Assembly (NCBI GenBank): GCA_021809105.1
Contig: JAKBAM010000002.1
Span: 201,025 to 265,024 of the forward strand
Direction of reading: 5' to 3'
DNA: 64,000 bases
Origin: Actinomycetes bacterium
GTDB lineage: Bacteria; Actinomycetota; Acidimicrobiia; Acidimicrobiales; Palsa-688
Position 1 is the stretch's first letter, and each line of letters opens with the position of its first letter. Shown in pieces: positions 50,808-64,000 of the stretch. The notes beneath the pieces were generated by a model, which worked only from the letters and a program-made list of their open reading frames with translations, was not told the origin of the DNA and made no database searches. The position numbers and the translations under genes are program-made.

Positions 50808-51698
50808 ATGACTGTCGTCCTCGCCCTCCTGTCCGCCGCCTTGTTCGGCTCTGGTGTAGGCCTCCAGCAGCGCCCGGCGCGTGACGTCCCCGACACCTAC
50901 GCGGCCAGGCCAGGTCTCCTCGCGAAGGTGGCCCTCCGACCGCTTTGGCTGGCTGGGATCGTCGCCGAGATCGCCGGCTTCGCCCTGCAGGTCGTCGCCC
51001 TCCGCGACGGATCCCTGGTGGTCGTGCAGCCCCTCATCACCACCTCACTCCTCTTCACCCTCGCCCTTTCTGGGATGTGGTCGGGTGATTCGATCACCGC
51101 CCGGGAGTGGGTCGGGGTGGTTGCGGTGATCGCCGGTCTCTCGGCGTTCATGGTGCTGGCGGCGCCGAGCGAGCACAGCAGCGGCGTCGCCAGCCAGTCC
51201 GACTGGATCATCCTCGGAGCCACGATGGCCGGCGGGGTCGGCGCCTTGATGGTCAGCGGCTTTCGCCTGGGTGGCCGCAGTCGAGCCGCGCTCTTCGGCC
51301 TGGCGGCCGGCCTTGGCGACGCCGTGATGGCTGTGCTGACCAAGGCGCTGGCCCACTCGCTCGGTGGCGGGGTGGGGCACGCGGTGCACACGTGGTCTCC
51401 CTACGCCCTGTGCGTAGCTGGCATCGGTTCGCTCTTGCTCAGCCAAACCGCCTATCAGACCGGGCGCCCCACCGTGTCACTGCCCCTGATCACCGTCACC
51501 GACCCGATCATCAGCTCGGTCATCGGGATCGCACTCTTCGGCGAGGTGCTACGCCTAGACGGCCTGAGGGCGCCGGCTGTCGTCCTCGCCGCGGCAGTGA
51601 TGATCGTCGGTCTCGTCGCCCTCACGAGATCCACTGCGGTGATCGAGCGCCACGCCGAGGCGACCGCCGTCGACGAGCCGGCGTCTGATCCGGCATGA
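50808..51698 (+). CDS. DMT-superfamily (EamA-like) membrane transporter
   Basis: About 10 TM helices with duplicated 4-5 TM halves. First gene of a four-gene overlapping operon. Confidence 0.6.
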   Translation: MTVVLALLSAALFGSGVGLQQRPARDVPDTYAARPGLLAKVALRPLWLAGIVAEIAGFALQVVALRDGSLVVVQPLITTSLLFTLALSGMWSGDSITAREWVGVVAVIAGLSAFMVLAAPSEHSSGVASQSDWIILGATMAGGVGALMVSGFRLGGRSRAALFGLAAGLGDAVMAVLTKALAHSLGGGVGHAVHTWSPYALCVAGIGSLLLSQTAYQTGRPTVSLPLITVTDPIISSVIGIALFGEVLRLDGLRAPAVVLAAAVMIVGLVALTRSTAVIERHAEATAVDEPASDPA

Positions 51699-52834
51699 GC
51701 GAGCCGAGGGACCTGCGCGTCCCGCCCGCGCGGGTGGTGTTCAGCGCCGAGGACCGGGTCCGGGTCCTGGACCTGATCGACCAGTCGCTGCGGACCGGCT
51801 CCCTCACCCTCGGTCCGGTAGGGGCCGCCTTCGAGGAGGCGTTTGCTGCCAGCCATCGAGCCCCCCACGCCATCGCTACCTCTTCGGGCACCAGCGCCCT
51901 CGAGATCGCGCTGCGCTCCCTCGGCGTCACCGGCGAAGTGATCGTGCCCGCCAATACCTTCTTCGCTACAGCCGCCGCCGTCATCCATGCAGGCGCCCGA
52001 CCCCGCTTCGCGGACGTCGAGCGTGCCACGTTGTCGCTGTCGGCCGCCACGATCGAGGCGGCGCTGACCCCTGCGAGCACCGCGGTGGTCGCGGTCCACA
52101 TCGGCGGCCTGATCAGCTCCGAGATGGACTCAATCGCCCAGCTGTGCGCGGCGAAAGGTTTGGTGCTGATCGAGGATGCCGCTCACGCCCACGGCTCGAC
52201 CCTCGGGGGGCGCCACGCCGGCTCGTGGGGAAGGGCTGCGACCTTCTCGTTCTATCCGACCAAGGTCGTGGCCGGTGCAGAGGGCGGCATGATCCTCACT
52301 GGCGAGGCTGAGCTGGCAGCGGAAGCTCGAATATTTCGTGACCAGGGAAAGGCCGGGTTCCATGGTGGTGCCCACGTGCGGCTGGGATCCGCTTGGCGGA
52401 TGAGCGAGGTTCACGCGGCGGTCGGCTTGGTGCACCACGGGCGGCTCGACGCAGCCGTCGCCACCCGCCGGCGTGTCGCGGCTTTTTACCACTCGGAGCT
52501 GGCCGATCTGGACGGCATTACCGGCCAGGCCGAGCCGTCCGGCGCCAGGAGCTGCCACTACAAGTACGTCGCCTTCCTGGAGGTGGGCGTGGACCGGGAG
52601 CGATTGCGGACCGTGCTCCGGGAAGATCACGGCGTGGCGCTGTCGGGCGAGGTGTATCCCCGCCCTCTCCATCACGAGCCGGTTTTCGCAGATGTCCTCC
52701 ACGGCGGCCTCCCCGAGACAGAAGACGTCTGCGCCCGCCACGTCTGCCTACCTGTGTACTCCGATATGACCGACGAAGAAGCTGGCATCGTCGTGTCAGC
52801 CCTTCGCTCGGCGCTCCCACGGGCCCGGCAATGA
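51695..52834 (+). CDS. DegT/DnrJ/EryC1/StrS-family PLP-dependent aminotransferase
   Basis: ATGA overlap with the DMT gene. Family fold with the conserved region GTSALEIALRSLG...VIVPANTFFAT. 379 aa. Confidence 0.85.
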   Translation: MSEPRDLRVPPARVVFSAEDRVRVLDLIDQSLRTGSLTLGPVGAAFEEAFAASHRAPHAIATSSGTSALEIALRSLGVTGEVIVPANTFFATAAAVIHAGARPRFADVERATLSLSAATIEAALTPASTAVVAVHIGGLISSEMDSIAQLCAAKGLVLIEDAAHAHGSTLGGRHAGSWGRAATFSFYPTKVVAGAEGGMILTGEAELAAEARIFRDQGKAGFHGGAHVRLGSAWRMSEVHAAVGLVHHGRLDAAVATRRRVAAFYHSELADLDGITGQAEPSGARSCHYKYVAFLEVGVDRERLRTVLREDHGVALSGEVYPRPLHHEPVFADVLHGGLPETEDVCARHVCLPVYSDMTDEEAGIVVSALRSALPRARQ

Positions 52835-53571
52835 CCGGGAGCGCATCCCGTCGCCTCGGCGCTGCGAGTGCGGGTTTCGCCGGCATGTTCGCCGCCATCC
52901 AGTGGGTGCCGAGCGTCGTCAGCCTCGGTCAATGGCTGCCTGTTCGGTCGCTCCCATCGGGATGGTGCAGTTGGCGTGGGCGCCCTGGCACCACAGTGGC
53001 GCTCACCTTCGACGACGGTCCCGACCCCGCGACCACCCCCCGCATCCTCGACGCCCTCGATCGGCTGGGCCTGGTAGCCACCTTCTTCTGCACCGGCGCG
53101 CACGTCGAACGCCACCCTGGCTTGGCCTGCGAGCTACGAGACCGGGGGCACGCAGTCGGATCTCACGGCTATGCCCACGAGCACCACCTCTTACATGGCC
53201 CCGGCTGGATTGCCCGGGATCTCGACGCGGCCCTGAGGGTGTCGGCAGCGGCGGGGCTCAGCCCCCGGTGGTACCGGCCTCCTTACGGGCAGTGCAGCGG
53301 CCCGACCCTCTTCGCGGCGCGCCGGAGGGGCCTGAGTACGGTCCTGTGGTCGGCATGGGGACGGGAGTGGGCTGCACCCGACGCCGGAGCGGTGGCCGCT
53401 CGCGTCGGTGCGGCGCTGGCGCCCGGAGCGGTCGTGCTACTCCATGACAGCGACGCCTTCTCGCCACCCGGGTCGGTCGAGCGCACCCTGGTTGCGCTCG
53501 AGTCTGTTGCCGCTGACCTGGCCGACCGCGGTCTGCGCGCCGCCACCCTCGACGAGGTAATGGCGGAGTGA
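52831..53571 (+). CDS. polysaccharide deacetylase (NodB-homology, CE4) family protein
   Basis: ATGA overlap. NodB motifs TFDDGP and HGYAHEH. Hydrophobic N-terminus. Confidence 0.8.
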   Translation: MTGSASRRLGAASAGFAGMFAAIQWVPSVVSLGQWLPVRSLPSGWCSWRGRPGTTVALTFDDGPDPATTPRILDALDRLGLVATFFCTGAHVERHPGLACELRDRGHAVGSHGYAHEHHLLHGPGWIARDLDAALRVSAAAGLSPRWYRPPYGQCSGPTLFAARRRGLSTVLWSAWGREWAAPDAGAVAARVGAALAPGAVVLLHDSDAFSPPGSVERTLVALESVAADLADRGLRAATLDEVMAE

Positions 53572-54716
53572 GACTGCGGCGGGTGATGTTCCTCTCCGGC
53601 TCTTTGGGCAAGGGGCACGATGTGGTCGCCGAGGCCTGCGCCGCAGCCCTGGCGCCCTACAGCGTGGAGTCGACGGTGCTCGATTCGATGCGGCTCCTCG
53701 GTGGCGGCGCGGCCGCTGCCGGCGACTGGGCCTTCAAGCGGCTGCTGTCGGTGACCGCCATCTACGACGCCTTCCATTTCTCCCAGCTGCGTGACGACGG
53801 CCGCCTCGGCCGAGCGGCCGACCGGGCGGCTGTGGACAAGATGCACCGGGCTTTGAGCCGGGAGATCGACCGCTTCGGACCGCAGCTGGTCGTCCCGGTG
53901 TTCGCCACCGGTGCGGGGGCCGCGATCCGGCTCAAGCGGGAAGGTGGCACTTTCTCCACCATGGTCGTCATGACCGACTCCTTTGCTCATCGGATGTGGG
54001 TTCACGAGGGCACCGACGCCTTCCTCGTGACTTCTGCCGCTGCGGCCGAATCCGTGCGCCGGTACTGGCCGGAAGCGCCTGTGTCGGTCGTCGCGGCCCC
54101 GGTGCGGCCCGAGTTCTACGAGGCTCCCCCCCGGGCCGAAGCCCGTTCGCGCCTCGGGGTGCCCCCCGATGTCAGCTGCGTGCTGTTGATGTCGGGCGCG
54201 TGGGGGCTCGGGCCGCTGGACGAGGCGTCTGAAGCGCTGTCAGCCGACGGTACCTGGGTGCTGGCGGTGGCGGGGACGAACACCACCATGGAGCGCTCCC
54301 TCCGCCGCCTTGCGGACCGCCAGCCGAACATCGTGGCCTTCGGCTACACCGACCGGGTGCCTGAGCTCATGTCGGCGTGCGACGTGGTAGTCACCAGCTC
54401 CGGCGACACCTGCAGCGAAGCCCGTACTCTCGGTCGGGGGATCATCCTCATCGACGTCGTGCCGGGTCACGGACGTGAGAACTTGATGCATGAGCTGGAG
54501 TTGGGTGGCGCCACCGCCTGCCTCCCGAACGCGGGGTCGATCGCCAGGGCGGTGCGCAGTTTCCTCGGTGACCCGCAGAGGTCGAAGGTGGCGCCGGCGG
54601 CCGATCCCAGGGCCGCCGAGAAGCAGTTCCTGGATGCCGTGAGGGCGATAGGGTTCGAGCTACCGGAGAACCAGCTGTCAGCCAACCGGATGGGTGGTTC
54701 ACGAAAGACGGTCTGA
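53568..54716 (+). CDS. MGDG-synthase-family (GT28, UgtP-like) glycosyltransferase
   Basis: ATGA overlap. N-terminal LSGSLGKGHDVVAEA matches the MGDG_synth domain. GT28 C-terminal domain. Confidence 0.8.
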   Translation: MRLRRVMFLSGSLGKGHDVVAEACAAALAPYSVESTVLDSMRLLGGGAAAAGDWAFKRLLSVTAIYDAFHFSQLRDDGRLGRAADRAAVDKMHRALSREIDRFGPQLVVPVFATGAGAAIRLKREGGTFSTMVVMTDSFAHRMWVHEGTDAFLVTSAAAAESVRRYWPEAPVSVVAAPVRPEFYEAPPRAEARSRLGVPPDVSCVLLMSGAWGLGPLDEASEALSADGTWVLAVAGTNTTMERSLRRLADRQPNIVAFGYTDRVPELMSACDVVVTSSGDTCSEARTLGRGIILIDVVPGHGRENLMHELELGGATACLPNAGSIARAVRSFLGDPQRSKVAPAADPRAAEKQFLDAVRAIGFELPENQLSANRMGGSRKTV

Positions 54717-55487
54717 GAGCATCCGGTAGGCGTTGGGGAGCACCCGCCGGATCCTCACGGGCAGGCCGAGCCATCCGGGCACGACCCGGTCGGGGCAGCC
54801 GTGCGCAAGGCAGTAGAGGATGGCTTCAGCCACCTCAGAGGCCGGTATGGGGCTCGGCCAGGCCCGCGCATAGGGTTGGTTGCGCCGTCGGAAGAAGTCG
54901 GTGGCGACGACACCGGGGTTGACGACCGACACCTTGACGCCGCGGGGGCGCAGCTCGACTCGCAAGGCTTCGCCCAGCGCCGCCAGGCCCGCCTTCGACG
55001 CGGAGTAAGCGGCCTCGCCGCCCAAGGGGAGCAGCCCGGTGATGGATCCCACCAGAACGATCTGGCCTCCGCCCCCGGCGATCAGGTGGGGGAGAGCAGA
55101 GCGTAGCAGGTGGGCGCCGGCGCGTAGGTTGATGTCGAGCACGGCGTCGAGCTCGCCGGCGGTCATGGTCTGGAAGGGGCCGGCCCAGCCGGCGCCGGCG
55201 TTGGAGATGACGATGTCGAGCCGGCCGAGTGCGGCGACGGCCTGGGCCACTGCCTCCGAAGGACCGGTGGATGTCGCAAGATCGGCCTGAATCGTCACCG
55301 GCCCGGTGAAGTCACGGGCTACGTCTACGAGGGCGGTGAGGTCTCGGCCCACTACAGCGACTCGGATCCCTTCGGCATCGAGCAGCCTGGCCGTCGCCGC
55401 GCCGATCCCGCTCGACGCCCCGGTGACCAAGGCCGTGCGCCCCGGCGGGAGGCGTGCGCGGCGGCGGCCGGGATCAGCTCGGCTCAC
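54699..55487 (-). CDS. classical short-chain dehydrogenase/reductase (SDR), translationally coupled to hpnH
   Basis: TGASSGIG cofactor motif and YSASK catalytic motif. GTG start forms a GTGA overlap with the hpnH stop. Confidence 0.7.
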   Translation of the reverse strand: MSRADPGRRRARLPPGRTALVTGASSGIGAATARLLDAEGIRVAVVGRDLTALVDVARDFTGPVTIQADLATSTGPSEAVAQAVAALGRLDIVISNAGAGWAGPFQTMTAGELDAVLDINLRAGAHLLRSALPHLIAGGGGQIVLVGSITGLLPLGGEAAYSASKAGLAALGEALRVELRPRGVKVSVVNPGVVATDFFRRRNQPYARAWPSPIPASEVAEAILYCLAHGCPDRVVPGWLGLPVRIRRVLPNAYRMLSDRLS

Positions 55488-56488
55488 GACCCTACAGCGG
55501 CTCGCAATGATTGCTTGAGGGACTTCGTCGTCGCCAGCACGGCGCTGGGCTCGTAGCCGCAGTGGGCCATGCAGTTGGCGCAGCGTGGGTCCTTGCCCCG
55601 CCCGTAGCGGTCCCAATCTGTGGTCGCGATCAGCTCCTCGTAGGTCTCGGTGTAGCCATCGGACATCAGGTAGCAGGGCTTCTGCCAGCCGAGCACCGAA
55701 TAGCTCGGGATGCCCCACGGGGTGCAATCGAAGTCGACCTTTCCCTCGAGGAAATCGAGGAAGAGAGGGCTGTGGTTCAGCCGCCATCTCTTGCGCCGGC
55801 CGTCGGCGAAGGCGTCGGCGAAGAGCTTCGTCGAGGACTTAGTGCTGAGGAAGTTGACCTGGTCAGGCGCCTTCTCGTAGGCATAGCCGGGAGAGATCAT
55901 CATCTGGTCGACCTGGAGCTCGTCGTTCAGGTAGTCCAACACCTCCCGCACCGTTCTCACCGAGTCGGTGTTGAAGAACGTCGTGTTGGTGTTGACCGTG
56001 AACCCCCGCTCCTTGGCCTTGCGGATGGCGGCGACTGCCTTGTCGAAGGTGCCGTCCCTGCTCACCGACTCGTCGTGACGATCCCGGAGGCCGTCGATGT
56101 GGACCACCCAGCTGAAGCGGGGGTTCGGCTCGAACTTTTCCAGCTTCCGCTCGAGTAGCAAGGCGTTGGTGCAGAGGTAGACGAATTTCTTGCGGGCGAG
56201 GAGCTCGGCGACGATCTTGTCGATCTCCGGGTGCAGCAGCGGCTCCCCGCCGGCGATGGACACCATCGGGGCCCGGCTCTCCTCGATTGCGCCCACCGCC
56301 TGCTCGACGGTGAGGCGCCTGCGCAGGATGTCGGTGGGATACTGGATCTTGCCGCATCCGTTGCACGACAAGTTGCAGGCGAAGAGGGGCTCGAGCTCGA
56401 CGATCAGGGGGAACTTGTCGCGCCCGGCCAGCTTTTGCTTGGCCATGTAGGTGCCGACCTGGACACTTTGACGGAGGGGTACACCCAT
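55484..56488 (-). CDS. hpnH: adenosylhopane synthase, hopanoid-associated radical SAM protein HpnH
   Basis: CNLSCNGC radical-SAM cysteine triad. N-terminus ...FPLIVELEPLFACNLSCNGCGKIQYP closely matches the HpnH family. Confidence 0.9.
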   Translation of the reverse strand: MGVPLRQSVQVGTYMAKQKLAGRDKFPLIVELEPLFACNLSCNGCGKIQYPTDILRRRLTVEQAVGAIEESRAPMVSIAGGEPLLHPEIDKIVAELLARKKFVYLCTNALLLERKLEKFEPNPRFSWVVHIDGLRDRHDESVSRDGTFDKAVAAIRKAKERGFTVNTNTTFFNTDSVRTVREVLDYLNDELQVDQMMISPGYAYEKAPDQVNFLSTKSSTKLFADAFADGRRKRWRLNHSPLFLDFLEGKVDFDCTPWGIPSYSVLGWQKPCYLMSDGYTETYEELIATTDWDRYGRGKDPRCANCMAHCGYEPSAVLATTKSLKQSLRAAVGS

Positions 56489-56491
56489 GAT

Positions 56492-58030
56492 CTATCGGAC
56501 CTCCGGAGGTAGGGAGAAGGAGACATTTTCGGTGTGGACCGTTCGCTCGGAGACCTTCACCGGTCCCAGGCCTCGGAGCGCGTCGACCACCCGCGCCACG
56601 ACGGACTCCGGCGTAGACGCTGCTGCGGTGAGGCCGATATTGCCCACACCTGTCAACCATGCCAGGTCGAGGGCTTCCGGGTCGTCGACCAGCTCCGCCG
56701 CGGCACCTGCACTCCGGGCGGCTTCGACCAGCCTGGCTGCGTTGGACGAGTTGGACGAGCCGACGACCAGCACCAGGTCGGTGTCGGCCGCGACGGCCCG
56801 CACGGCATCCTGGCGGTTGTGGGTGGCGTAGCAGATGTCCCCCGCGTGGGGACCGATCAGGGTCGGGTAGCGGCGGCGCAGCGCCTCCACCACCGAGGAG
56901 GTCTCGTCGGGCGAGAGGGTGGTCTGAGTGACGTAGGCGACGCGGGCCCCGTCGACGGTTTCCAGGGCGTCCACCTGTTCGGGAGTGGAGACCAGGTGCA
57001 TTGCCGGAGCCTCGCCCATGGATCCCTCCACCTCGTCGTGGCCGGCGTGGCCGACGAGCACCACTTCGTAGCCCCGCTCGTTGAAGCGGCGGATCTCGGT
57101 GTGGACCTTGGCGACCAGGGGGCAGGTGGCATCGACGACTGTTATACGCCGGGCGGCGGCATCCGCCCTCACCGACGGCGCGACTCCGTGGGCGGAGAAC
57201 ACGACCGTGGCCCCGTCGGGGACCTCTTCGAGCTCCTGGACGAACACCGCCCCCCGACCTTCGAGCTCGGTGACCACGTGGGAGTTGTGGACGATCTGGC
57301 GCCGCACGTAGACCGGTGCACCATATCGGCCGATGGCACGCTCGACGGTCTCGATAGCTCGCGATACGCCGGCACAGAACGAACGTGGGCCGGCCATCAA
57401 CACGCGGCGTGGCTCTGTCGCTGCGGCCCACGCAACCAGGACCGGGGCGGCAGCCCTGAGCGCTCGCAGGGCGGCGATGCCTCCGCTGACGGTGCTCAAC
57501 GAGATGAGGTCCCGACCGGGGGTGTCGGCGATAGCACGCACCACGGCAACGGGTCGCTCCCAAGGATGGCGCAGGATCGCCGCCGACTCCATATCGACTG
57601 CGGCTGCCCCGAGAGCGGCCAACGCGTCCCGTGCGGGCCGACCCCGGACCAAGCTGTCGGTGCTGGCGATGGTCCCGGTTCGTGCTTGAAGGCCCGCCCG
57701 GCGCAGGGCGGAGGCCAACAGGGTCGCAGACGGCAGGTCGGTCACGAGCTGCCCATGGTCGTCCACCACTCGATCGGCGACTACGAGGTCGCCTGGGTGC
57801 AGGTCGTTCACCAACGCACCAGCCACGCCCGCCACGACCATGGCCTTCCCGGGCAAGCTCGCCATGCGGGCGGCGGCCGCGGCCGCGCGGGCGGGACCTG
57901 CGCCGGTGCGCTCCACTCGTAGGCCCGACGCGCCTCGGCCCACCGCTCGCGCCTCGACGCGCAGCGGCACCAGTGCCAGCAGCGCGCCGCTGGTCGCAGG
58001 TGCCGGGCGTGGCTCCGCTCGACCTTGCAT
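56492..58030 (-). CDS. fusion protein: HpnG-like nucleoside phosphorylase (PNP/MTAN family) N-terminal domain plus IspH (4-hydroxy-3-methylbut-2-enyl diphosphate reductase) C-terminal domain
   Basis: N-terminal PNP_UDP_1 motifs AAVDMESAAIL and VAVVRAIADTPG. The C-terminus from RVLMAGPRSFCAGVSRAIE to YVTQTTLS is IspH/LytB. No stop codon separates the two domains in the 512-codon ORF. Confidence 0.8.
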   Translation of the reverse strand: MQGRAEPRPAPATSGALLALVPLRVEARAVGRGASGLRVERTGAGPARAAAAAARMASLPGKAMVVAGVAGALVNDLHPGDLVVADRVVDDHGQLVTDLPSATLLASALRRAGLQARTGTIASTDSLVRGRPARDALAALGAAAVDMESAAILRHPWERPVAVVRAIADTPGRDLISLSTVSGGIAALRALRAAAPVLVAWAAATEPRRVLMAGPRSFCAGVSRAIETVERAIGRYGAPVYVRRQIVHNSHVVTELEGRGAVFVQELEEVPDGATVVFSAHGVAPSVRADAAARRITVVDATCPLVAKVHTEIRRFNERGYEVVLVGHAGHDEVEGSMGEAPAMHLVSTPEQVDALETVDGARVAYVTQTTLSPDETSSVVEALRRRYPTLIGPHAGDICYATHNRQDAVRAVAADTDLVLVVGSSNSSNAARLVEAARSAGAAAELVDDPEALDLAWLTGVGNIGLTAAASTPESVVARVVDALRGLGPVKVSERTVHTENVSFSLPPEVR

Positions 58031-60001
58031 TCAGCGATCTCCAGATGCGTAGCGCCCGAGCGCCGTCAGCGGGAAGACCAGTCGGTAGAGGTGGTAGTTG
58101 ATGTTGAAGTCCCACGGGAAGCCGGTGCCCGTGTACTGAGGCTCGTCCCATGTCCCGTCGGGCCGCTGGGTCCCGACGAGGAACGCCACACCCGCCCTGG
58201 TCGCGGCGCTCTCGCGCTCTCCGGCGGCCAGCAGGGCGAGGAGGGCCCAGGCCGTCTGTGACGGTGTCGAATCGCCTCGTCCCCTCCACTGCTCGTCGAC
58301 GTAGGAGCGCATGTCCTCACCCCAGCCCCCGTCGGGGTTCTGGTGTGCCTCCAGCCACGCGACCGCCCGGCGCACCCGCTCGTCGCCTGGCGCCACCCCG
58401 GCGTCGATGAGTGCCGGGATGGCCGCGCCGGTGCCGTAGACGTAGTTGCTGCCCCAGCGACCGAACCAGGAGCCGTCATCCTCCTGCTGGCTGCCGAGCC
58501 AGTCGACGGCGCGAGCTACCGTCTCGTGCGGCACGCCAGGCTCACCCGCGAGCATCTCGATGACATGGGCGGTGACGTCGGCTGACGGGGGGTCGGTCAC
58601 ACGTCCGAAGTCGCAAAACGGCAGGGCCGCACACAGCTCGCTGTCGTTGTCGACGTCGAAGGCGCCCCACCCCCCGTCCCTGCACTGCATGCCGAGGGTC
58701 CAGGCCACCCCCCGCTCTACTGCCGCGCAGCGGGGACCCGTGTCACCTGCGGCCACCCCTGCCCGGCGTAACGCCATGATCACCTCGGCGGTGTCGTCGA
58801 TGTCGGGATAGAGATCGTTGGCGAACTCGAACGCCCAGCCGCCCGGCTCGAGCTCGGGGCGGCGCACCGCCCAGTCGCCCTTGATGCGAACCTCCTCTGC
58901 CACCAGCCAACCGGCGGCCGCCTGCATGGCTGGATCGTCGGGGGCGACCCCTGCATCGGCCAAGGCCACCACCGCCAGGGCGGTGTCCCACACCGGGGAC
59001 TGGCAGGCCTCGACGTGGCGCCCACGGTGGTCATCGAGCACGAAGCCGTCGATGCCGGCGAGCGCTGCCTTCATCACCGGGTGCTCAATGGAGTAGCCCT
59101 GGAGGTGCAAGGCGATCACGGAGTAGACGATCGGCGGCTGGATACCCCCCCAGCAGCCGTCGGCCTCCTGCCGCGAGAGGATCCAGCGTTCTGCCCGGGA
59201 GAGGCAGGCGCGGCGCACCGCGGCCCGGGGCAGGACCCAGCGAGGTAGGCGCTCGTAGCGGTGAAGTAGCCGGTCGAGCGCCTGGAAGGCGAGGGCGGTA
59301 GGGGTGCGGGAAGCTGGCTTGGACGCGGCCGGCGGCGATGCCAGCTCGTCTAGGGCGAAGGGCAGCGGGCGAGCGGGACGGTGGGCCATCACGACGCTCA
59401 GCGCGACGATCGTCTGGCGGGCCCAGCACCCGAAGTCGTAGATGTTGAGCGGTGCCCACTTCGGCAGCAACATGATCTCGGCCGGAAGTACCGGGAGCTC
59501 CTCCCACGGCCAAGCGCCGACCATCGCCATCCAGATCCGGGTGAAGACCCGGGTTCGGGCGAGACCGCCGTGGGATCGGATCCACGTCGCGGCTGCCACC
59601 ATGTGCGCTTCCCGGGCGTCATGGCCCGAGAGGCGCAGCGCCACGTAGGCCTCGACCGTGGTGGAGAGATCTCCTGGGCCGGCGAAGTATGTCGCCCACG
59701 CCCCGTCCTGACGTTGGTGGGAGGCAATCCAGCGCCCGGCGGCGGCCCTCGTGGCATCGTCGAGGATCCCGAGGAAGTGGCGCAACAGGAGGTCCTCGGC
59801 ATCCATGGTGACGTTGGTCTCGAGCTCCCCCTTCCACCATCCACCGGGGTGTTGGAGCTGCAGGAGGTGCTCGCAGGCGCGGTCGCGCGCATCGACTGCT
59901 CCCGCCACATCCTCTGCCCCGACGACCACGAGGCGGTCGGCTTCGTGGGGTGCTGGCGATGTGGGTTCTTCGTCGACGGGCCGCTCGGCGAGCGAGGTCA
60001 C
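58031..60001 (-). CDS. shc: squalene-hopene cyclase
   Basis: Catalytic DIDDTA (DXDDTA) motif and several QW motifs (DGGWG, DGSWFGRWG). GTG start forms a GTGA overlap with the FPP synthase stop. Stop abuts the next gene (TGAATG). Confidence 0.9.
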   Translation of the reverse strand: MTSLAERPVDEEPTSPAPHEADRLVVVGAEDVAGAVDARDRACEHLLQLQHPGGWWKGELETNVTMDAEDLLLRHFLGILDDATRAAAGRWIASHQRQDGAWATYFAGPGDLSTTVEAYVALRLSGHDAREAHMVAAATWIRSHGGLARTRVFTRIWMAMVGAWPWEELPVLPAEIMLLPKWAPLNIYDFGCWARQTIVALSVVMAHRPARPLPFALDELASPPAASKPASRTPTALAFQALDRLLHRYERLPRWVLPRAAVRRACLSRAERWILSRQEADGCWGGIQPPIVYSVIALHLQGYSIEHPVMKAALAGIDGFVLDDHRGRHVEACQSPVWDTALAVVALADAGVAPDDPAMQAAAGWLVAEEVRIKGDWAVRRPELEPGGWAFEFANDLYPDIDDTAEVIMALRRAGVAAGDTGPRCAAVERGVAWTLGMQCRDGGWGAFDVDNDSELCAALPFCDFGRVTDPPSADVTAHVIEMLAGEPGVPHETVARAVDWLGSQQEDDGSWFGRWGSNYVYGTGAAIPALIDAGVAPGDERVRRAVAWLEAHQNPDGGWGEDMRSYVDEQWRGRGDSTPSQTAWALLALLAAGERESAATRAGVAFLVGTQRPDGTWDEPQYTGTGFPWDFNINYHLYRLVFPLTALGRYASGDR

Positions 60002-61041
60002 GATTCCCGATCCACCACGAAGGCAGCGAGGTCGGCGAGCGTACGGTGGGGCACAGGGGAGAGACGCACCCGCTCCAGGGCTCCGAGGGCGCCGTCTAGG
60101 TGCGACTTGGCCCGCGTCCGGGCCCATTCCCTGCCCCCGCACGCTTCGACCAGGTAGGCGGCACGAGTGACTTGCGCCTCATCGAGAACTGGTGCGCCCG
60201 GGGTTCCGACGACCAGCGCTCTCAGCTCGTCGGACTCGTCGCCCCCCGCCGCCAGTGCGGCCACGACCGGCAGCGACTTCTTGCGGCGCCGGAGATCGTT
60301 GCCCGCCGGCTTTCCGGTGCGCGCCGGGTTGCCCCAGATCCCGAGCAGGTCGTCGACGGCCTGGAAGGCGAGCCCCAGGTGTCCCCCGTAGTCGCGGAGG
60401 GCACCGATGGTGGCGGGGGGTGCGCCGGCCAGGACTGCCCCGATCGATGCCGCTGCGCCGAGGAGAGCGCCGGTTTTGGCCGCGCACATGGCGACACAAT
60501 CGTCGACCGACACGGTGGATTGCCTCTCGAACGCGATGTCGTCGGCCTGTCCGGCGATCATCGCGGCAGTGGCGTCCGCCAGCAGCTCAGCCGCCGCGGA
60601 GCCGTGCGCCTCGCACTCGAGGAGCACCTGCTGGGCCGCCACTGCCAGCGCGTCGCCGGCGATTATCGCCGGCCCGATCCCGAAGACGGACCACACCGTG
60701 GGGCGGTGGTGGCGCTCGGTGTCACCGTCGATGATGTCGTCGTGGATCAGGGAGTAGTTGTGGACCAGCTCAACCGCCACCCCACCGGGCACGCCGATCT
60801 CGGGCTCGGCCCATGCCGCCGCGGCGGAGAGGAGGGCCAGGGCGGGGCGCACCAGCTTGCCGCCCGGGGCGTCGAGCGGGCGGCCATCAGTATCGGTCCA
60901 GCCGAGGTGGTAGGAGGCCATCCTGGCTATGTCGGGGTTCATGCGCCTCACGGCGTGTTCCATCGCAGGTTGGATCGCGCTCCGGGTCCGAGCCAGGGCA
61001 TCGGGCAGGCTGCCGCCGTTGGAGGAAGGAAGTTGGGTCAT
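59998..61041 (-). CDS. polyprenyl (farnesyl) diphosphate synthase
   Basis: First DDxxD motif DDIIDGD and second motif FQAVDDLLG. Confidence 0.85.
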   Translation of the reverse strand: MTQLPSSNGGSLPDALARTRSAIQPAMEHAVRRMNPDIARMASYHLGWTDTDGRPLDAPGGKLVRPALALLSAAAAWAEPEIGVPGGVAVELVHNYSLIHDDIIDGDTERHHRPTVWSVFGIGPAIIAGDALAVAAQQVLLECEAHGSAAAELLADATAAMIAGQADDIAFERQSTVSVDDCVAMCAAKTGALLGAAASIGAVLAGAPPATIGALRDYGGHLGLAFQAVDDLLGIWGNPARTGKPAGNDLRRRKKSLPVVAALAAGGDESDELRALVVGTPGAPVLDEAQVTRAAYLVEACGGREWARTRAKSHLDGALGALERVRLSPVPHRTLADLAAFVVDRES

Positions 61042-61063
61042 GCGGTCACTCGCTCGCATTCGG

Positions 61064-62470
61064 TCAGGTCACCTCCTGGGGTAGGTGCCGGGTGACGCCG
61101 GCGCCTACGAGCGCAGCGCGGGCGGCTCGCCGCCCGCTGCGTAAGGCGCCTTCCATCGTCGCCGGCCATCCGGTGTCGGTCCACGCTCCGGCCAGGTACA
61201 GCCCCGGCAAACGGGTCAAGGCGCTCGGCCTCAGGGCGCCGCTGCCGGGGACGGCCCTGAAGGTGGCGTGTCGCTCCTTCGTCACGACGGCATCGAGGAC
61301 CGTAGCGTGGCGCGACGCAGGCAAGATCCGGTGGATCTCTTCGGCCATCGTGGTGGCGAGGGTCTCGGGTCTTGTGCCGAGGTGGTCGTCGGCCGCAGAC
61401 AGGGACAAGGCAAGGTGCTGTGGCTCTCCCGGACCGCCCGGCGCCAGCCCTGAAGAGCTCGTGCGGTCGAACACCCACTGCACCGGAGAGTCCAGCGCCG
61501 CCAGCAGCGGCAGATCGGTGACACGCCGGTCGTAGAGGAGGTGCACGTCGACGATCGGAGACAGGCCCAGCTGACCGATCCGGCTCAAACCAGGCAGCGC
61601 CCAGTCAGGCACCAGCCCAGGCAATTCGGTGTGAGGGAGCGCGACGATGACGGAGTCGGCGTGTAGATCCTTGCCTCCGGCGACGACCCGAAGCGCCGTG
61701 GGTGCATCGGCCCCGCCGTCCACCGCCGTGACGCGAGTCTCGGTCCGCACCTCGACGCGTGCCTTGGCCAGGGCCGACAGCGAACGCTCACCGTGGAGCT
61801 GCGCCAACGGTATCCGGGACCACCCGATGTCTGCGGCCCGCCGATCGGTCAGCAGGCCGGTCTGGAACACTTTTGCGCCCATCGCCAGGGAGGCTTCGCT
61901 GGCTGGAAGGTTGATCGTCGCCACTGTGATCAGGTCCCACAGCGCCGCGATGGTCGACGGCCGCTGGCCGTGGCGGGCCAGCCATGCACCGAAGGTCTCC
62001 CGGTCGAGGCGTGGGTCGTCCAAGTCGATGTGGCGCAGCGGGAGGACGGCGCGCCCGAGGCGCAGGCGGTCGGCGACGGACAGGTGGCGGTACTGGAGGA
62101 GCGCCCGAGCGAGGTGAAGCGGCGCAGGGACGTCGTCGCGGCGAAGGCGCGCGCTGAGCGGGGGCCGACCTCGGCTCGCCGCCCTTATGACAGTGATGTC
62201 GAGGTGGTCCTGGATCTCGACGTCGCCGGCCGAACCGATCCGGTCCAGGAACTCGAGATATGCGTGGCAGCAGCGGAGGAACACGTGCTGGCCGTTGTCG
62301 AGCCAGCGGCCCTGGTGCTCGAAGGACCAGGTGAGGCCACCGAGGCGCCGGCGCCGCTCGAGCAGGGTCACCCGAGCACCCGCGTCTGCGCAGTCGAGCG
62401 CCGCTCCCAACCCGGCGAGCCCTGCGCCCACCACCACGACATGGGGGCGGTCGCGGGCGGCGGGTGTCAT
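61064..62470 (-). CDS. hpnE: hydroxysqualene dehydroxylase (squalene-associated FAD-dependent desaturase HpnE)
   Basis: FAD-binding VVVVGAGLAGLGAALDCADAG. Amine-oxidase/phytoene-desaturase fold. ATG forms an ATGA overlap with the hpnD stop. Confidence 0.85.
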   Translation of the reverse strand: MTPAARDRPHVVVVGAGLAGLGAALDCADAGARVTLLERRRRLGGLTWSFEHQGRWLDNGQHVFLRCCHAYLEFLDRIGSAGDVEIQDHLDITVIRAASRGRPPLSARLRRDDVPAPLHLARALLQYRHLSVADRLRLGRAVLPLRHIDLDDPRLDRETFGAWLARHGQRPSTIAALWDLITVATINLPASEASLAMGAKVFQTGLLTDRRAADIGWSRIPLAQLHGERSLSALAKARVEVRTETRVTAVDGGADAPTALRVVAGGKDLHADSVIVALPHTELPGLVPDWALPGLSRIGQLGLSPIVDVHLLYDRRVTDLPLLAALDSPVQWVFDRTSSSGLAPGGPGEPQHLALSLSAADDHLGTRPETLATTMAEEIHRILPASRHATVLDAVVTKERHATFRAVPGSGALRPSALTRLPGLYLAGAWTDTGWPATMEGALRSGRRAARAALVGAGVTRHLPQEVT

Positions 62471-63339
62471 GCCCGGCCCACCGTAAGGGCTCGCGCCGCA
62501 ACCGCAGCCTTCTCCCAACCCGGCAACGAAAGCCGGCCTCGCGTGACCGCGAGCGGGTCGCGCTGGATCCGGTCGAGCAATCGCCGGTAGATGCCAGCCA
62601 TGGCGGCGGTGCATGCCCGGGAGCGCCGGTCCAGTCTCGGCAGGAGTGCCAGGCCCCGGTCGTACCACTCAGCCGCACGAGATGCCTCGAAGCTCACCAG
62701 GGCGGCGAGAGCGTCATCGCCCCCGCGCACCTCGGAGTCAACGTCGAAGCGGGCCAGGTCATCGGCGGGCAGGTAGACCCGCCCCATGGTTTCGCGATCC
62801 TCGACGATGTCACGCAGGATATTGGTCAGCTGGAGGGCGACCCCCAGGGCGTCGGCCAGGGGATCCGCTCGGGCCCGGTCCGGTGTGCGGTATACCGCCA
62901 GCGACAGCCGACCGACCGTGCCTGCCACCCGCAGGCAGTAGCCGATCAGGTCCTCGATCGTGTTGTAGGTGACCCCCTCCACGTCCATCTCGCAACCCGC
63001 GATGAGCTCGTCGAGCGCCGACAAGGGGAGGTCATAGCGCCGGGCGGTGTCTCCCAGCGCGATCAACACGGGGTCCCCTCCGGCCGCCGCCGGATCGTCG
63101 GCAACGGCCATGACTGCGTGGCGGGTCGCGGCCAGGGCGGCGAGCTTGTCGTCGGATCCGGCCCCGCCATCGCCGATGTCGTCAATCCTCCTGGCTATCG
63201 CATACAGGGCGCTCATAGCGGCTCGCTCCGGTGGTCGCAGCAGCCTTATCCCGTAAGAGAAGTTGCGGGCTTCGCTCCTCGTGATCTCCTCGCAGCGTCG
63301 GTAGGCGTCCTCCAGATCCGTGGCGGCGGGCAAGCTCAC
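62467..63339 (-). CDS. hpnD: presqualene diphosphate synthase (squalene/phytoene synthase family)
   Basis: SQS/PSY family motifs YGIRLL and ARRIDDIGD. GTG start forms a GTGA overlap with the hpnC stop; the exact start is uncertain. Confidence 0.75.
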   Translation of the reverse strand: MSLPAATDLEDAYRRCEEITRSEARNFSYGIRLLRPPERAAMSALYAIARRIDDIGDGGAGSDDKLAALAATRHAVMAVADDPAAAGGDPVLIALGDTARRYDLPLSALDELIAGCEMDVEGVTYNTIEDLIGYCLRVAGTVGRLSLAVYRTPDRARADPLADALGVALQLTNILRDIVEDRETMGRVYLPADDLARFDVDSEVRGGDDALAALVSFEASRAAEWYDRGLALLPRLDRRSRACTAAMAGIYRRLLDRIQRDPLAVTRGRLSLPGWEKAAVAARALTVGRA

Positions 63340-64000
63340 CTCCGTGCTCCGAGGAGACCGATGGTGTGGGAGGCGACCCGAGAGGCTCGAGGCTGTGGTG
63401 TTCGTGTCAGCGGGTCGAAGCCCCCCGCAGCGAGAGCGTCCAGCGCGGCGTGACCACCGGCGACGAATCCAGCGACGGCGAGGCGCGATCGTCCCCCGAG
63501 GCTGTGCACGAGTGGTGCTCCCGACCGCAGCAGGCGCCGGGCCCGCCATGCCTCGAAAGCCATGAGCCCGCGCAACGCCGTCCCCGCCGGCGCGGCTGAG
63601 CGACTCAGGTCGGCACTCGACACCCCGAACCGATCGAGGTCGTCCAGCGGCAGGTAGATCCGGCCGGCGGCGTGGTCCTCAGCCACATCCTGCCAGTGCT
63701 CGGCCAGCTGCAGGGCGGTACAGACCATATCGGACCAGGCCACCCGCTCCGGCGTGGCCGCTCCGAAGGCGGCCAGCACCAGCCTGCCGATCGGGGCCGC
63801 GGACAGGGCGCAGTAGCCGACGAGGTCGTCGAAGCTCTGGTAGCGGGTGACGGCCTGATCCTGCCGGTTGGCTGCCACTAGGTCGCGCATCGGCGCCGGA
63901 TCGGCACCGAGCCGGAGGAGGCAGGCAGCCGCCCGCGACACCAGCGGATCGAGCCCGTCCTGGCTGGGATCTTTCAAAGCCGCGCTGAGCTGCTCGTCGA
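63336..64000 (-). CDS. hpnC: hydroxysqualene synthase (squalene/phytoene synthase family), 5'-partial; continues beyond the window end
   Basis: SQS/PSY C-terminal region YCALSAAPIGRLVL and YLPLDDL. The reading frame is open to nt 64000. Confidence 0.8.
   Translation of the reverse strand, partial: DEQLSAALKDPSQDGLDPLVSRAAACLLRLGADPAPMRDLVAANRQDQAVTRYQSFDDLVGYCALSAAPIGRLVLAAFGAATPERVAWSDMVCTALQLAEHWQDVAEDHAAGRIYLPLDDLDRFGVSSADLSRSAAPAGTALRGLMAFEAWRARRLLRSGAPLVHSLGGRSRLAVAGFVAGGHAALDALAAGGFDPLTRTPQPRASRVASHTIGLLGARR

What the first reader, a model, noticed from the sequence alone, without database searches (positions are those of the whole stretch)
54699..55487. SDR translationally coupled to hpnH: candidate for the missing ribosylhopane-to-bacteriohopanetetrol reductase
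Seen in sequence: the GTG start of this classical SDR (TGASSGIG, YxxxK) overlaps the hpnH stop as GTGA. It is therefore the last cistron of the hpnC-hpnD-hpnE-fpps-shc-hpnG/ispH-hpnH operon.

Established knowledge: HpnH makes adenosylhopane and HpnG releases ribosylhopane. The NAD(P)H-dependent reduction of the ribosylhopane open-chain aldehyde to BHT has no assigned enzyme.

Inference: a co-operonic SDR is a plausible candidate for that step.
Basis: partly seen in the sequence, partly recalled or inferred. Interest (0 to 1): 0.7.

Follow-up and report, generated by a model that had tools for sequence, protein, structure and literature searches.

The report
Hopanoid-linked SDR, candidate tetrol-forming reductase
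A small NADP-type dehydrogenase gene fused onto the end of a hopanoid-lipid operon belongs to an unnamed enzyme family that nearly always sits beside hopanoid side-chain genes, which makes it a testable candidate for the still-missing enzyme that turns ribosylhopane into bacteriohopanetetrol.

Summary
On the minus strand a 262-aa classical SDR (54699-55487) starts at a GTG that overlaps the hpnH stop as GTGA. It closes a tightly packed hpnC-D-E / prenyl synthase / shc / hpnG-ispH / hpnH operon.

The SDR belongs to a distinct, uncharacterised subfamily with a conserved C-terminal motif and an NADP-type Arg after beta2. All 12 homologues whose contigs I looked up lie in a hopanoid or hopanoid-glycoside context:
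- 7 directly after hpnH
- 3 with HpnJ and/or HpnR, a DMT transporter and a GT28-like glycosyltransferase
- 2 (Streptomyces) with DMT, a CE4 deacetylase and a GT28-like glycosyltransferase

In sister Acidimicrobiia the slot after hpnH holds either this SDR or hpnO, never both. HpnO is the known ribosylhopane-consuming aminotransferase. The closest solved structure is clavaldehyde dehydrogenase, an NADPH aldehyde reductase.

Papers from 2025-26 still list no enzyme for ribosylhopane to BHT. The family is not universal: it is absent from all 56 Streptomyces/Kitasatospora hpnH loci and from many other hpnH loci. No biochemistry exists.

Probability of a ribosylhopane reductase: about 0.5. Probability of a hopanoid-pathway enzyme of some kind: about 0.85.

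The parts
54699..55487 (-). Classical SDR, 262 aa. TGASSGIG at residues 22-29; catalytic N120-S148-Y161-K165; Arg48 after beta2 (NADP type); family-specific C-terminal motif. Candidate ribosylhopane reductase.
55484..55487 (-). GTGA start/stop overlap between hpnH and the SDR (translational coupling).
   Evidence: The same overlap occurs in L083, L084 and L170.
55484..56488 (-). hpnH, radical-SAM adenosylhopane synthase.
   Evidence: TIGR03470, 521 bits.
56492..58030 (-). hpnG-ispH fusion: nucleoside phosphorylase domain plus HMBPP reductase.
58031..60001 (-). shc, squalene-hopene cyclase. The GTG start overlaps the prenyl synthase stop as GTGA.
   Evidence: TIGR01507, 746 bits.
59998..61059 (-). 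Polyprenyl diphosphate synthase.
61064..62470 (-). hpnE.
   Evidence: TIGR03467, 407 bits.
62467..63339 (-). hpnD.
   Evidence: 270 bits, just under the 278.6-bit cutoff.
63336..64000 (-). hpnC; its 5' part runs off the window.
53568..54716 (+). MGDG_synth/GT28-like glycosyltransferase, convergent with the SDR (18-nt 3' overlap). Recurrent partner of the SDR family; adjacent to hpnJ in L166, L171 and L172.
52831..53571 (+). CE4 polysaccharide deacetylase. Its ATG overlaps the DegT stop.
51695..52834 (+). DegT/DnrJ/EryC1-type sugar aminotransferase.
50808..51698 (+). DMT-family transporter (NF038012). Adjacent to the SDR in L165, L166, L171, L172 and L175.

Best explanation
The gene encodes a member of a previously unnamed, hopanoid-associated subfamily of classical NADP(H)-type short-chain dehydrogenases/reductases. 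It is co-translated with HpnH.

**Proposed reaction (inferred).** It reduces the C-35 aldehyde of open-chain ribosylhopane, the HpnG product, to the primary alcohol with NADPH. The product is bacteriohopanetetrol (BHT).

**Proposed place in the pathway (inferred).**
- BHT then serves as acceptor for the convergently encoded GT28-like glycosyltransferase and CE4 deacetylase. These would be a non-orthologous counterpart of HpnI/HpnK.
- In sister lineages the same operon slot holds HpnO, which sends the same aldehyde to aminobacteriohopanetriol instead.

**Shown:** gene, family, motifs, fold, operon position, conserved neighbourhoods.
**Inferred:** substrate, direction of the reaction, the roles of the neighbouring genes.
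For: 1. **Family definition.** Homologues down to about 42% identity share a C-terminal motif (PGVVDT.FF.RRN.PY.R..P.P ... VPGWL..P.R....P..Y..L..RF). They also share invariant W101, R202, Y206, R208 and W239. In a neighbour-joining tree they group apart from 75 other SDRs.

2. **Context of homologues, chosen without regard to neighbours (12 look-ups).**
   - hpnH lies directly upstream in 7.
   - Three lie with a DMT transporter, a GT28-like glycosyltransferase and HpnJ and/or HpnR. HpnR scores 810 bits (TIGR04367) and HpnJ 762 bits (TIGR03471).
   - Two Streptomyces homologues lie with DMT, CE4 and GT.
   - At least five different gene orders occur.
   - Family members also lie next to hpnH in an Actinomycetota MAG (L014) and a Chloroflexota MAG (L020).

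3. **Independence from the GT module.** In L009, L167 and L173 the operon ends hpnH-SDR and is followed by glgC plus a GT4 gene, which I read as housekeeping genes. The SDR therefore goes with the hpn operon even where the GT28/CE4/DegT set is absent.

4. **Alternation with hpnO.**
   - In L001-L005, L007 and L008 (HpnH 78-84% identical) hpnH is followed, with gaps of about -1 to +45 nt, by an HpnO-like class-III aminotransferase.
   - None of 10 hpnH-SDR loci carries hpnO, and none of 9 non-Streptomyces hpnO loci carries the SDR.
   - The two locus types interleave on an HpnH tree.

5. **Chemistry.**
   - Arg48 after beta2 aligns with the first of the two Arg after beta2 in the NADPH enzyme clavaldehyde dehydrogenase.
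   - That enzyme is the best fold match for a pLDDT-94 model and among the top three sequence matches.
   - The SDR is a classical, not an extended (nucleotide-sugar), type. Its Epimerase score is below cutoff.

6. **The gap is real.** No enzyme is assigned in papers from 2025-26. Actinomycetota are said to lack known enzymes downstream of HpnH. Cell-free ribosylhopane reduction was shown by Bodlenner 2015 (title cited). Its NADPH dependence is from my own recollection of that paper.
Against: - There is no biochemical or genetic data. SDR substrates cannot be read from sequence.
- The family is missing near hpnH in 56 of 56 Streptomyces/Kitasatospora loci and in 20 of 24 other hpnH loci of the genome survey. 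No member was seen outside Actinomycetota and Chloroflexota among named hits. At best it is a lineage-specific solution.
- The Streptomyces copies have no canonical hopanoid gene within 8-10 kb. Their hopanoid link rests on the GT/CE4/DMT association.
- The conserved Arg-rich loop (R201, R202, R208) would also suit an anionic or sugar substrate.
- Clavaldehyde dehydrogenase is only marginally ahead of dozens of other SDRs in the fold search.
- The trees are neighbour-joining without support values.
- Whole genomes could not be scanned, so hpnO or other reductases may lie elsewhere in these genomes.
Confidence: 0.5

Rival explanations
1. The SDR is a hopanoid side-chain or head-group tailoring oxidoreductase, but for a different step. 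Examples: oxidising a hydroxyl of BHT or of a BHT-hexosamine to a ketone that the DegT aminotransferase then aminates; oxidising the ribosylhopane lactol to ribonolactone-hopane; or epimerising a side-chain carbinol.
For: - In the window, L081, L083 and L170 the SDR faces an operon with a DegT-type aminotransferase. That enzyme needs a keto substrate, and no other oxidoreductase is encoded nearby.
- The SDR's tightest partners in several lineages are DMT, GT and CE4 rather than hpnH.
- A ribonolactone/ribonylhopane species has been reported in some mutants.
- Glucose 1-dehydrogenase-type SDRs are among the sequence matches.
Against: - DegT occurs without the SDR (L001, L005, which carry hpnO instead).
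- The SDR occurs without DegT in most contexts (L009, L165-L167, L171-L175).
- An NADP-type cofactor site points to a reductive role rather than an oxidative one.
- The alternation with hpnO fits competition for the same aldehyde.
- Oxidoreductases that prepare amino-sugar precursors are usually extended SDRs or Gfo/Idh/MocA proteins (own knowledge).
- The HpnJ ring contraction is redox-neutral on paper, so it needs no reductase (inference).
Confidence: 0.3
2. The SDR belongs to a glycolipid module (GT28-like glycosyltransferase, CE4 deacetylase, DMT transporter) that acts on a non-hopanoid lipid such as diacylglycerol. It lies beside hopanoid genes only because membrane-lipid genes are co-regulated.
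For: - In two Streptomyces genomes the module stands alone, with no hpn gene within 8-10 kb.
- The glycosyltransferase resembles diglucosyl-diacylglycerol/MGDG synthases.
Against: - Seven of 12 look-ups have hpnH directly upstream, four loci with a 4-nt overlap, and three loci lack any GT28 module.
- The glycosyltransferase itself sits in an operon with or next to HpnJ in L166, L171 and L172.
Confidence: 0.1
3. The SDR is a generic SDR that happens to lie at the operon end and has no role in the pathway.
For: SDRs are very numerous in high-GC Gram-positive genomes. An unrelated SDR (28% identity) also lies after hpnH in L006.
Against: The subfamily stays linked to hopanoid genes across at least five gene orders and two phyla. 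Translational coupling is conserved.
Confidence: 0.05

Closest known systems
HpnA ('hopanoid-associated sugar epimerase', TIGR03466), an extended SDR found in proteobacterial and acidobacterial hpn clusters
   Same: It is an SDR-superfamily protein encoded in hopanoid clusters. Its function is unknown, and it has been suggested as the ribosylhopane-to-BHT enzyme.
   Different: - HpnA is an extended, nucleotide-sugar-type SDR. It is longer, at about 330 aa (own knowledge).
- The window protein is a 262-aa classical SDR. Its Epimerase-family score is below cutoff, and TIGR03466 is not among its 25 best NCBIfam matches.
- HpnA was reported as not essential for BHT in Burkholderia and is absent from Rhodopseudomonas.
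Clavaldehyde (clavulanic acid) dehydrogenase CAD of Streptomyces clavuligerus, PDB 2jah
   Same: It is the best fold match (34-35% identity, TM about 0.8) and among the top three sequence matches. It is a classical SDR with the same TGASSGIG motif and Arg after beta2. It is an NADPH-dependent aldehyde-to-primary-alcohol reductase, the same chemistry as proposed here.
   Different: - Its substrate is a small beta-lactam.
- It lacks the family's C-terminal VPGWL...RF helices and the RRN.PY.R loop.
- Its lead over other SDR structures is small.
HpnO (class-III aminotransferase that makes aminobacteriohopanetriol from ribosylhopane)
   Same: It occupies the same position, directly after and coupled to hpnH, in sister Acidimicrobiia. 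It presumably takes the same substrate (function).
   Different: It has an unrelated fold and unrelated chemistry (PLP transamination rather than hydride reduction), and it gives a different product.
HpnI/HpnK (GT2 glycosyltransferase and YdjC-type deacetylase that make BHT-glucosamine)
   Same: The SDR's recurrent partners are a glycosyltransferase and a deacetylase, found beside hpnJ and hpnH. This is the same logical pair of steps.
   Different: The protein families differ: GT28/MGDG_synth-like and CE4. Their activity on BHT is not shown.
DprE2 (mycobacterial SDR that reduces decaprenylphosphoryl-2-keto-ribose)
   Same: It is a classical SDR acting on a lipid-linked ribose (own knowledge; offered as a lead only).
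   Different: It was not compared here. It works with the FAD oxidase DprE1, and no such partner is present in any of these loci.

Membership tests
Classical SDR (Pfam PF00106 adh_short) | TGxxxGxG cofactor motif near the N-terminus | tested here: met
   TGASSGIG at residues 22-29. It is invariant or nearly so in 86 homologues.
Classical SDR (Pfam PF00106 adh_short) | NAG motif and catalytic tetrad Asn-Ser-Tyr-Lys | tested here: met
   NAGAG at residues 96-100; N120, S148, Y161, K165. S148, Y161 and K165 are invariant.
Classical SDR (Pfam PF00106 adh_short) | Profile score above the curated cutoff, length about 250 aa, Rossmann fold | tested here: met
   163 bits against a cutoff of 26.6. The AF2 model has pLDDT 94 with alternating beta/alpha elements. 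TM is about 0.8 to SDR structures.
NADP(H)-preferring classical SDR (basic residue directly after strand beta2) | Arg or Lys at the first position after beta2, and no acidic residue at the strand end | tested here: met
   V43-G47 are followed by R48, which is at least 90% conserved. R48 aligns with the first Arg after beta2 (AARR) of CAD, an NADPH enzyme. Actual cofactor use cannot be tested here.
HpnA (TIGR03466, extended SDR) | Extended-SDR architecture (Epimerase/NAD-dependent dehydratase domain, about 330 aa) and a score above the family cutoff | tested here: not met
   PF01370 Epimerase scores 19.9 bits, below its 20.9 cutoff. The protein is 262 aa. TIGR03466 is not among the 25 best NCBIfam matches, and no NCBIfam model reaches its cutoff.
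Hopanoid-associated SDR subfamily (defined here) | C-terminal motif PGVVDT.FF.RRN.PY.R..P.P ... VPGWL..P.R....P..Y..L..RF with invariant W101, R202, Y206, R208 and W239 | tested here: met
   The motif is absent from SDRs with 41% identity or less taken from metagenome loci.
Hopanoid-associated SDR subfamily (defined here) | Encoded next to hopanoid side-chain genes (hpnH, hpnJ, hpnR) or next to the GT28-like/CE4/DMT set | tested here: met
   12 of 12 look-ups, plus L009, L011, L014, L020, L085, L086 and L088.
Ribosylhopane reductase (an activity; no sequence family defined) | NADPH-dependent conversion of ribosylhopane to bacteriohopanetetrol | not testable with these tools
   This needs an enzyme assay or mutant lipid analysis.
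Ribosylhopane reductase (an activity; no sequence family defined) | Present only in genomes with hpnH and hpnG, and present in all BHT producers of the lineage | tested here: inconclusive
   Linkage to hpnH is strong. The family was not seen next to hpnH in most hpnH loci.

The most novel reading that the evidence does not exclude
This SDR family is the long-sought ribosylhopane reductase (BHT synthase) of Actinomycetota and Chloroflexota. Together with the GT28-like glycosyltransferase, the CE4 deacetylase and the DMT transporter, it forms a non-orthologous actinobacterial route from ribosylhopane to BHT-hexosamine and cyclitol-ether hopanoids. The alternative cistron hpnO sets the branch point between tetrol-type and amino-type hopanoids.
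Probability: 0.45. Interest if true: 0.75.

Novelty: new member of a known kind. Interest (0 to 1): 0.66.

Why it matters
Bacteriohopanepolyols are major bacterial membrane lipids and the source of the geohopane biomarkers. BHT is the central C35 product.

- **A pathway gap.** The step that makes BHT from ribosylhopane has had no gene assigned for years (Bodlenner 2015). A named candidate family would let that step be tested by one enzyme assay or one knockout.
- **Genome-based prediction.** It would improve prediction of tetrol-type versus amino-type hopanoids from genomes and MAGs.
- **Actinomycetota.** It would explain how these bacteria elaborate hopanoids. They are described as lacking known enzymes downstream of HpnH.
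- **Fallback value.** Even if the exact substrate is different, the family and its partner genes (glycosyltransferase, deacetylase, transporter) mark an undescribed hopanoid-tailoring module.

Tried and rejected
- **Metagenome scan.** Only 5 of its 80 loci (L085-L089) share at least 44% identity; by the C-terminal motif L085, L086, L088 and L089 are family members. The remaining 75 served as outgroups.
- **DegT partnership.** I considered that the SDR supplies a keto substrate to the DegT aminotransferase. I rejected it as the main reading because DegT and the SDR occur without each other.
- **HpnJ partnership.** I considered that the SDR reduces an intermediate of the HpnJ ring contraction. 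That rearrangement is redox-neutral on paper, and most SDR loci have no hpnJ nearby.
- **HpnA.** I considered that the SDR is HpnA. It is a classical SDR, not an extended one.
- **Literature.** Searches for a named ribosylhopane reductase, for an SDR linked to hpnH, and for hopanoid data on Acidimicrobiia found nothing relevant. Liu et al. 2014 is not in the held library.
- **Source organism.** The closest named relative is Acidiferrimicrobium sp. IK.
- **Promoter/terminator scan.** It found nothing informative.
Full report
**1. What is in the sequence**

All relevant genes are on the minus strand. Plus-strand bases 55484-55487 read tcac. On the coding strand this is GTGA: TGA ends the upstream gene and GTG begins a 262-aa ORF that runs to 54699.

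The product carries the following features:
- TGASSGIG at residues 22-29
- an NAG motif
- the catalytic set N120, S148, Y161, K165
- a match to PF00106 adh_short at E 6e-48

No curated NCBIfam model reaches its cutoff, so the protein has no specific name.

GTG 55487 is the only sensible start. The next in-frame start upstream is 133 nt inside the neighbouring gene. Orthologues have N-termini of similar length. Codon-position GC is 0.75/0.57/0.83, which is typical of a real gene in this 69% GC sequence.

The upstream genes are:

| Gene | Evidence |
|---|---|
| HpnH | TIGR03470, 521 bits against a cutoff of 225 |
| HpnG-IspH fusion | PNP_UDP_1 plus LYTB |
| Squalene-hopene cyclase | 746 bits |
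| Polyprenyl synthase | profile match |
| HpnE | 407 bits |
| HpnD | 270 bits, just under its 278.6-bit cutoff |
| HpnC | cut by the window end; 207 bits against a cutoff of 250 |

These genes are packed with -4 to +4 nt between them. No promoter- or terminator-like site separates hpnH from the SDR.

The SDR's 3' end overlaps by 18 nt the 3' end of a convergent plus-strand operon. That operon is also linked by 4-nt overlaps. It encodes a DMT transporter (50808), a DegT-type aminotransferase (51695), a CE4 deacetylase (52831) and an MGDG_synth/GT28-like glycosyltransferase (53568-54716).

**2. Is the linkage conserved?**

*Sample anchored on hpnH.* I took 80 loci, one per GTDB species, all encoding HpnH at 69-84% identity. 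A tblastn survey with the window's proteins gave these results:
- None of the 56 Streptomyces/Kitasatospora loci has a related SDR next to hpnH.
- Four of the 24 other loci have a related SDR within about 1.3 kb downstream of hpnH.
- L009 and L011 carry it on the same strand (54% and 51% identity).
- L014 and L020 carry it on the convergent strand (42% identity). L020 is a Chloroflexota MAG.

*Sample anchored on the SDR.* The picture is much sharper here. I looked up the contigs of 12 homologues (47-69% identity), chosen from the hit list for contig length and spread of identity.

| Context | Homologues |
|---|---|
| hpnH directly upstream | P0002 (Acidiferrimicrobium sp. IK), P0005, P0006, P0008, P0021, P0041, P0062 |
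| DMT transporter, GT28-like glycosyltransferase, HpnJ and/or HpnR | P0013, P0017, P0043 (Trebonia) |
| SDR-DMT-CE4 operon facing an MGDG_synth-like glycosyltransferase; no canonical hpn gene within 8-10 kb | P0075, P0045 (Streptomyces) |

In the second group HpnR scores 810 bits (TIGR04367) and HpnJ 762 bits (TIGR03471). In Trebonia the order is DMT-SDR-GT-HpnJ.

Three short metagenome contigs add to this: GT divergent from the SDR (L085), HpnR then SDR (L086), and SDR then GT (L088).

The 4-nt start/stop overlap with hpnH recurs in L083, L084 and L170. Gaps of 17-31 nt occur in L081, L167 and L173.

In L009, L167 and L173 the operon ends hpnH-SDR and is followed by glgC and a GT4 gene, which I read as housekeeping genes. 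The SDR therefore goes with the hpn operon even where the glycosyltransferase set is absent.

In L174 insertion sequences have cut the operon, yet a remnant of shc, then hpnG, hpnH and the SDR remain together.

**3. A definable subfamily**

Homologues down to about 42% identity share a C-terminal signature: PGVVDT.FF.RRN.PY.R..P.P ... VPGWL..P.R....P..Y..L..RF. They also share invariant W101, R202, Y206, R208 and W239. SDRs of 41% identity or less from unrelated metagenome contigs lack the signature.

In a neighbour-joining tree the family groups apart from 75 such outgroups. Its sub-branches match the context classes. No support values were computed.

A 250-aa branch, the L014/L020 type, is widespread in Chloroflexota and in Actinomycetes such as Rhizomonospora and Streptosporangiaceae.

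**4. The slot after hpnH**

In the Acidimicrobiia loci that lack the SDR (L001-L005, L007, L008; HpnH 78-84% identical to the window's), hpnH is followed on the same strand by a roughly 460-aa class-III aminotransferase. The gaps are about -1 to +45 nt. This protein is like the Kitasatospora and Streptomyces HpnO. HpnO converts ribosylhopane to aminobacteriohopanetriol.

The two gene types exclude each other at the locus level:
- None of 10 hpnH-SDR loci contains an hpnO homologue in the fetched DNA.
- None of 9 non-Streptomyces hpnO loci contains a family SDR.
- The 64-kb window has no hpnO, hpnJ or hpnR.

On a neighbour-joining tree of HpnH the two locus types interleave within the Acidimicrobiia clade, which implies at least two switches (no support values).

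L001 and L005 combine hpnO with the GT28-like, DegT and DMT genes but lack both the SDR and the CE4 gene. DegT therefore does not depend on the SDR.

**5. What it most likely does**

The canonical pathway has one redox step with no gene: reduction of the open-chain aldehyde of ribosylhopane to BHT.

The SDR family fits that step on several counts:
- It is tied to hopanoid side-chain genes in every context examined.
- It is most often coupled to hpnH.
- It alternates with the one enzyme known to consume ribosylhopane.
- Where it is not beside hpnH, it travels with a glycosyltransferase and HpnJ. These need a BHT-type acceptor, and they occur in lineages whose core cluster carries hpnO (Streptomyces; for Trebonia this is assumed from its relatives).

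Its cofactor site is of the NADP type. R48 follows strand beta2, is at least 90% conserved, and aligns with the first of the two Arg after beta2 in clavaldehyde dehydrogenase, an NADPH enzyme. This points to a reductive role.

A pLDDT-94 model matches clavaldehyde dehydrogenase best. That enzyme is an NADPH aldehyde-to-alcohol reductase. Its margin over other SDRs is small.

The protein is a classical SDR, not the extended type that works on nucleotide sugars.

I infer, but have not shown, two structural points:
- The polar, Arg-rich loop binds the triol-aldehyde side chain.
- The amphipathic C-terminal helices sit at the membrane surface, where the hopane rings stay embedded.

I put this reading at about 0.5. 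The weaker statement, that this is a hopanoid-pathway enzyme of some kind, I put at about 0.85.

**6. Rivals**

- **Different hopanoid redox step (about 0.3).** Candidates are making a ketone for DegT, oxidising the lactol to ribonolactone-hopane, or epimerisation. Against this stand the independence from DegT, the NADP-type site and the alternation with hpnO.
- **Non-hopanoid glycolipid module (about 0.1).** The hpnH coupling and the adjacency of the glycosyltransferase to HpnJ speak against it.
- **Chance neighbour (about 0.05).** The conservation across gene orders and phyla speaks against it.

**7. Comparison with what is known**

The idea that an SDR-superfamily protein fills this gap is not new. 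HpnA, an extended SDR, was proposed for the step. It was then doubted, because evidence was reported that it is not essential in Burkholderia and because Rhodopseudomonas lacks it.

The window protein is not HpnA. I found no paper linking a classical SDR to hpnH, and none naming a ribosylhopane reductase. A 2025 preprint notes that some Actinomycetota can make ribosylhopane but lack known downstream enzymes.

The finding is thus a new member of a known enzyme kind, with a specific and testable proposed role.

**8. Limits**

- The family is lineage-restricted and absent near hpnH in most loci surveyed.
- Whole genomes could not be scanned.
- The trees lack support values.
- The hopanoid link of the Streptomyces module is indirect.
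- Nothing here is biochemical.

The decisive experiments are a ribosylhopane/NADPH assay and a knockout or heterologous expression with hopanoid LC-MS.

Noticed in passing
window 50808-54716 (+); also L081, L083, L170, L005, L014, L165, L175: A convergent operon linked by 4-nt overlaps encodes a DMT transporter, a DegT aminotransferase, a CE4 deacetylase and a GT28/MGDG_synth-like glycosyltransferase. It recurs beside hopanoid clusters. A related glycosyltransferase lies next to or in an operon with HpnJ in L166, L171 and L172. The pair may be a non-orthologous counterpart of HpnI/HpnK for hopanoid glycosides in Actinomycetota.
   Followed up: partly
L001-L005, L007, L008 (about 0-45 nt after hpnH): In sister Acidimicrobiia an HpnO-like class-III aminotransferase occupies the cistron after hpnH in place of the SDR. 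L001 and L005 combine it with the GT28-like and DegT genes (L005 also with DMT; the L001 contig ends inside DegT). They have no CE4 deacetylase.
   Followed up: yes
window 56492-58030 (-); L002-L010, L014, L017, L024, L066, L079, L081, L167, L170, L173: HpnG (nucleoside phosphorylase domain) is fused to IspH in one 500-510-aa protein in many Acidimicrobiia and other actinobacterial loci. L083, L084 and L174 have a separate HpnG of roughly 190-230 aa. Streptomyces matches cover only the HpnG part.
   Followed up: partly
L174 3900-8700: This hopanoid operon is cut by transposase genes. Only a 71-residue remnant of shc is left, followed by intact hpnG, hpnH and the SDR.
   Followed up: partly
SDR residues 196-211 and 237-262 (window about 54699-54902): The family-specific loop is rich in arginine (R201, R202, R208, with Y206). 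Two amphipathic C-terminal helices follow. The loop could bind a polyol, an anionic group or lipid head groups. No explanation was tested.
   Followed up: no
P0121-P0240 (hits to the L020 SDR): A 250-aa branch of the same SDR family is common in Chloroflexota and in several Actinomycetes (Rhizomonospora, Streptosporangiaceae, Mycobacteriales MAGs). Only two of its contexts are known (L014, L020). Both are convergent with hpnH.
   Followed up: partly
L166 6305-7504 and L171 5195-6274: In L166 the public gene call puts a 326-aa ORF with no Pfam hit on the minus strand. tblastn shows a GT28-like glycosyltransferase on the plus strand (62% identity to the Trebonia one). This is probably a wrong-strand call in high-GC DNA.
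   Followed up: partly
window 54699-54716: The stop-proximal 18 nt of the SDR gene and of the convergent glycosyltransferase gene overlap. This leaves no room for a terminator between the two operons.
   Followed up: no
L006 9945-10631 (-): An unrelated 228-aa SDR (28% identity, lacking the family motif) lies convergent right after hpnH in one Acidimicrobiales MAG. An SDR beside hpnH is therefore not by itself diagnostic.
   Followed up: partly
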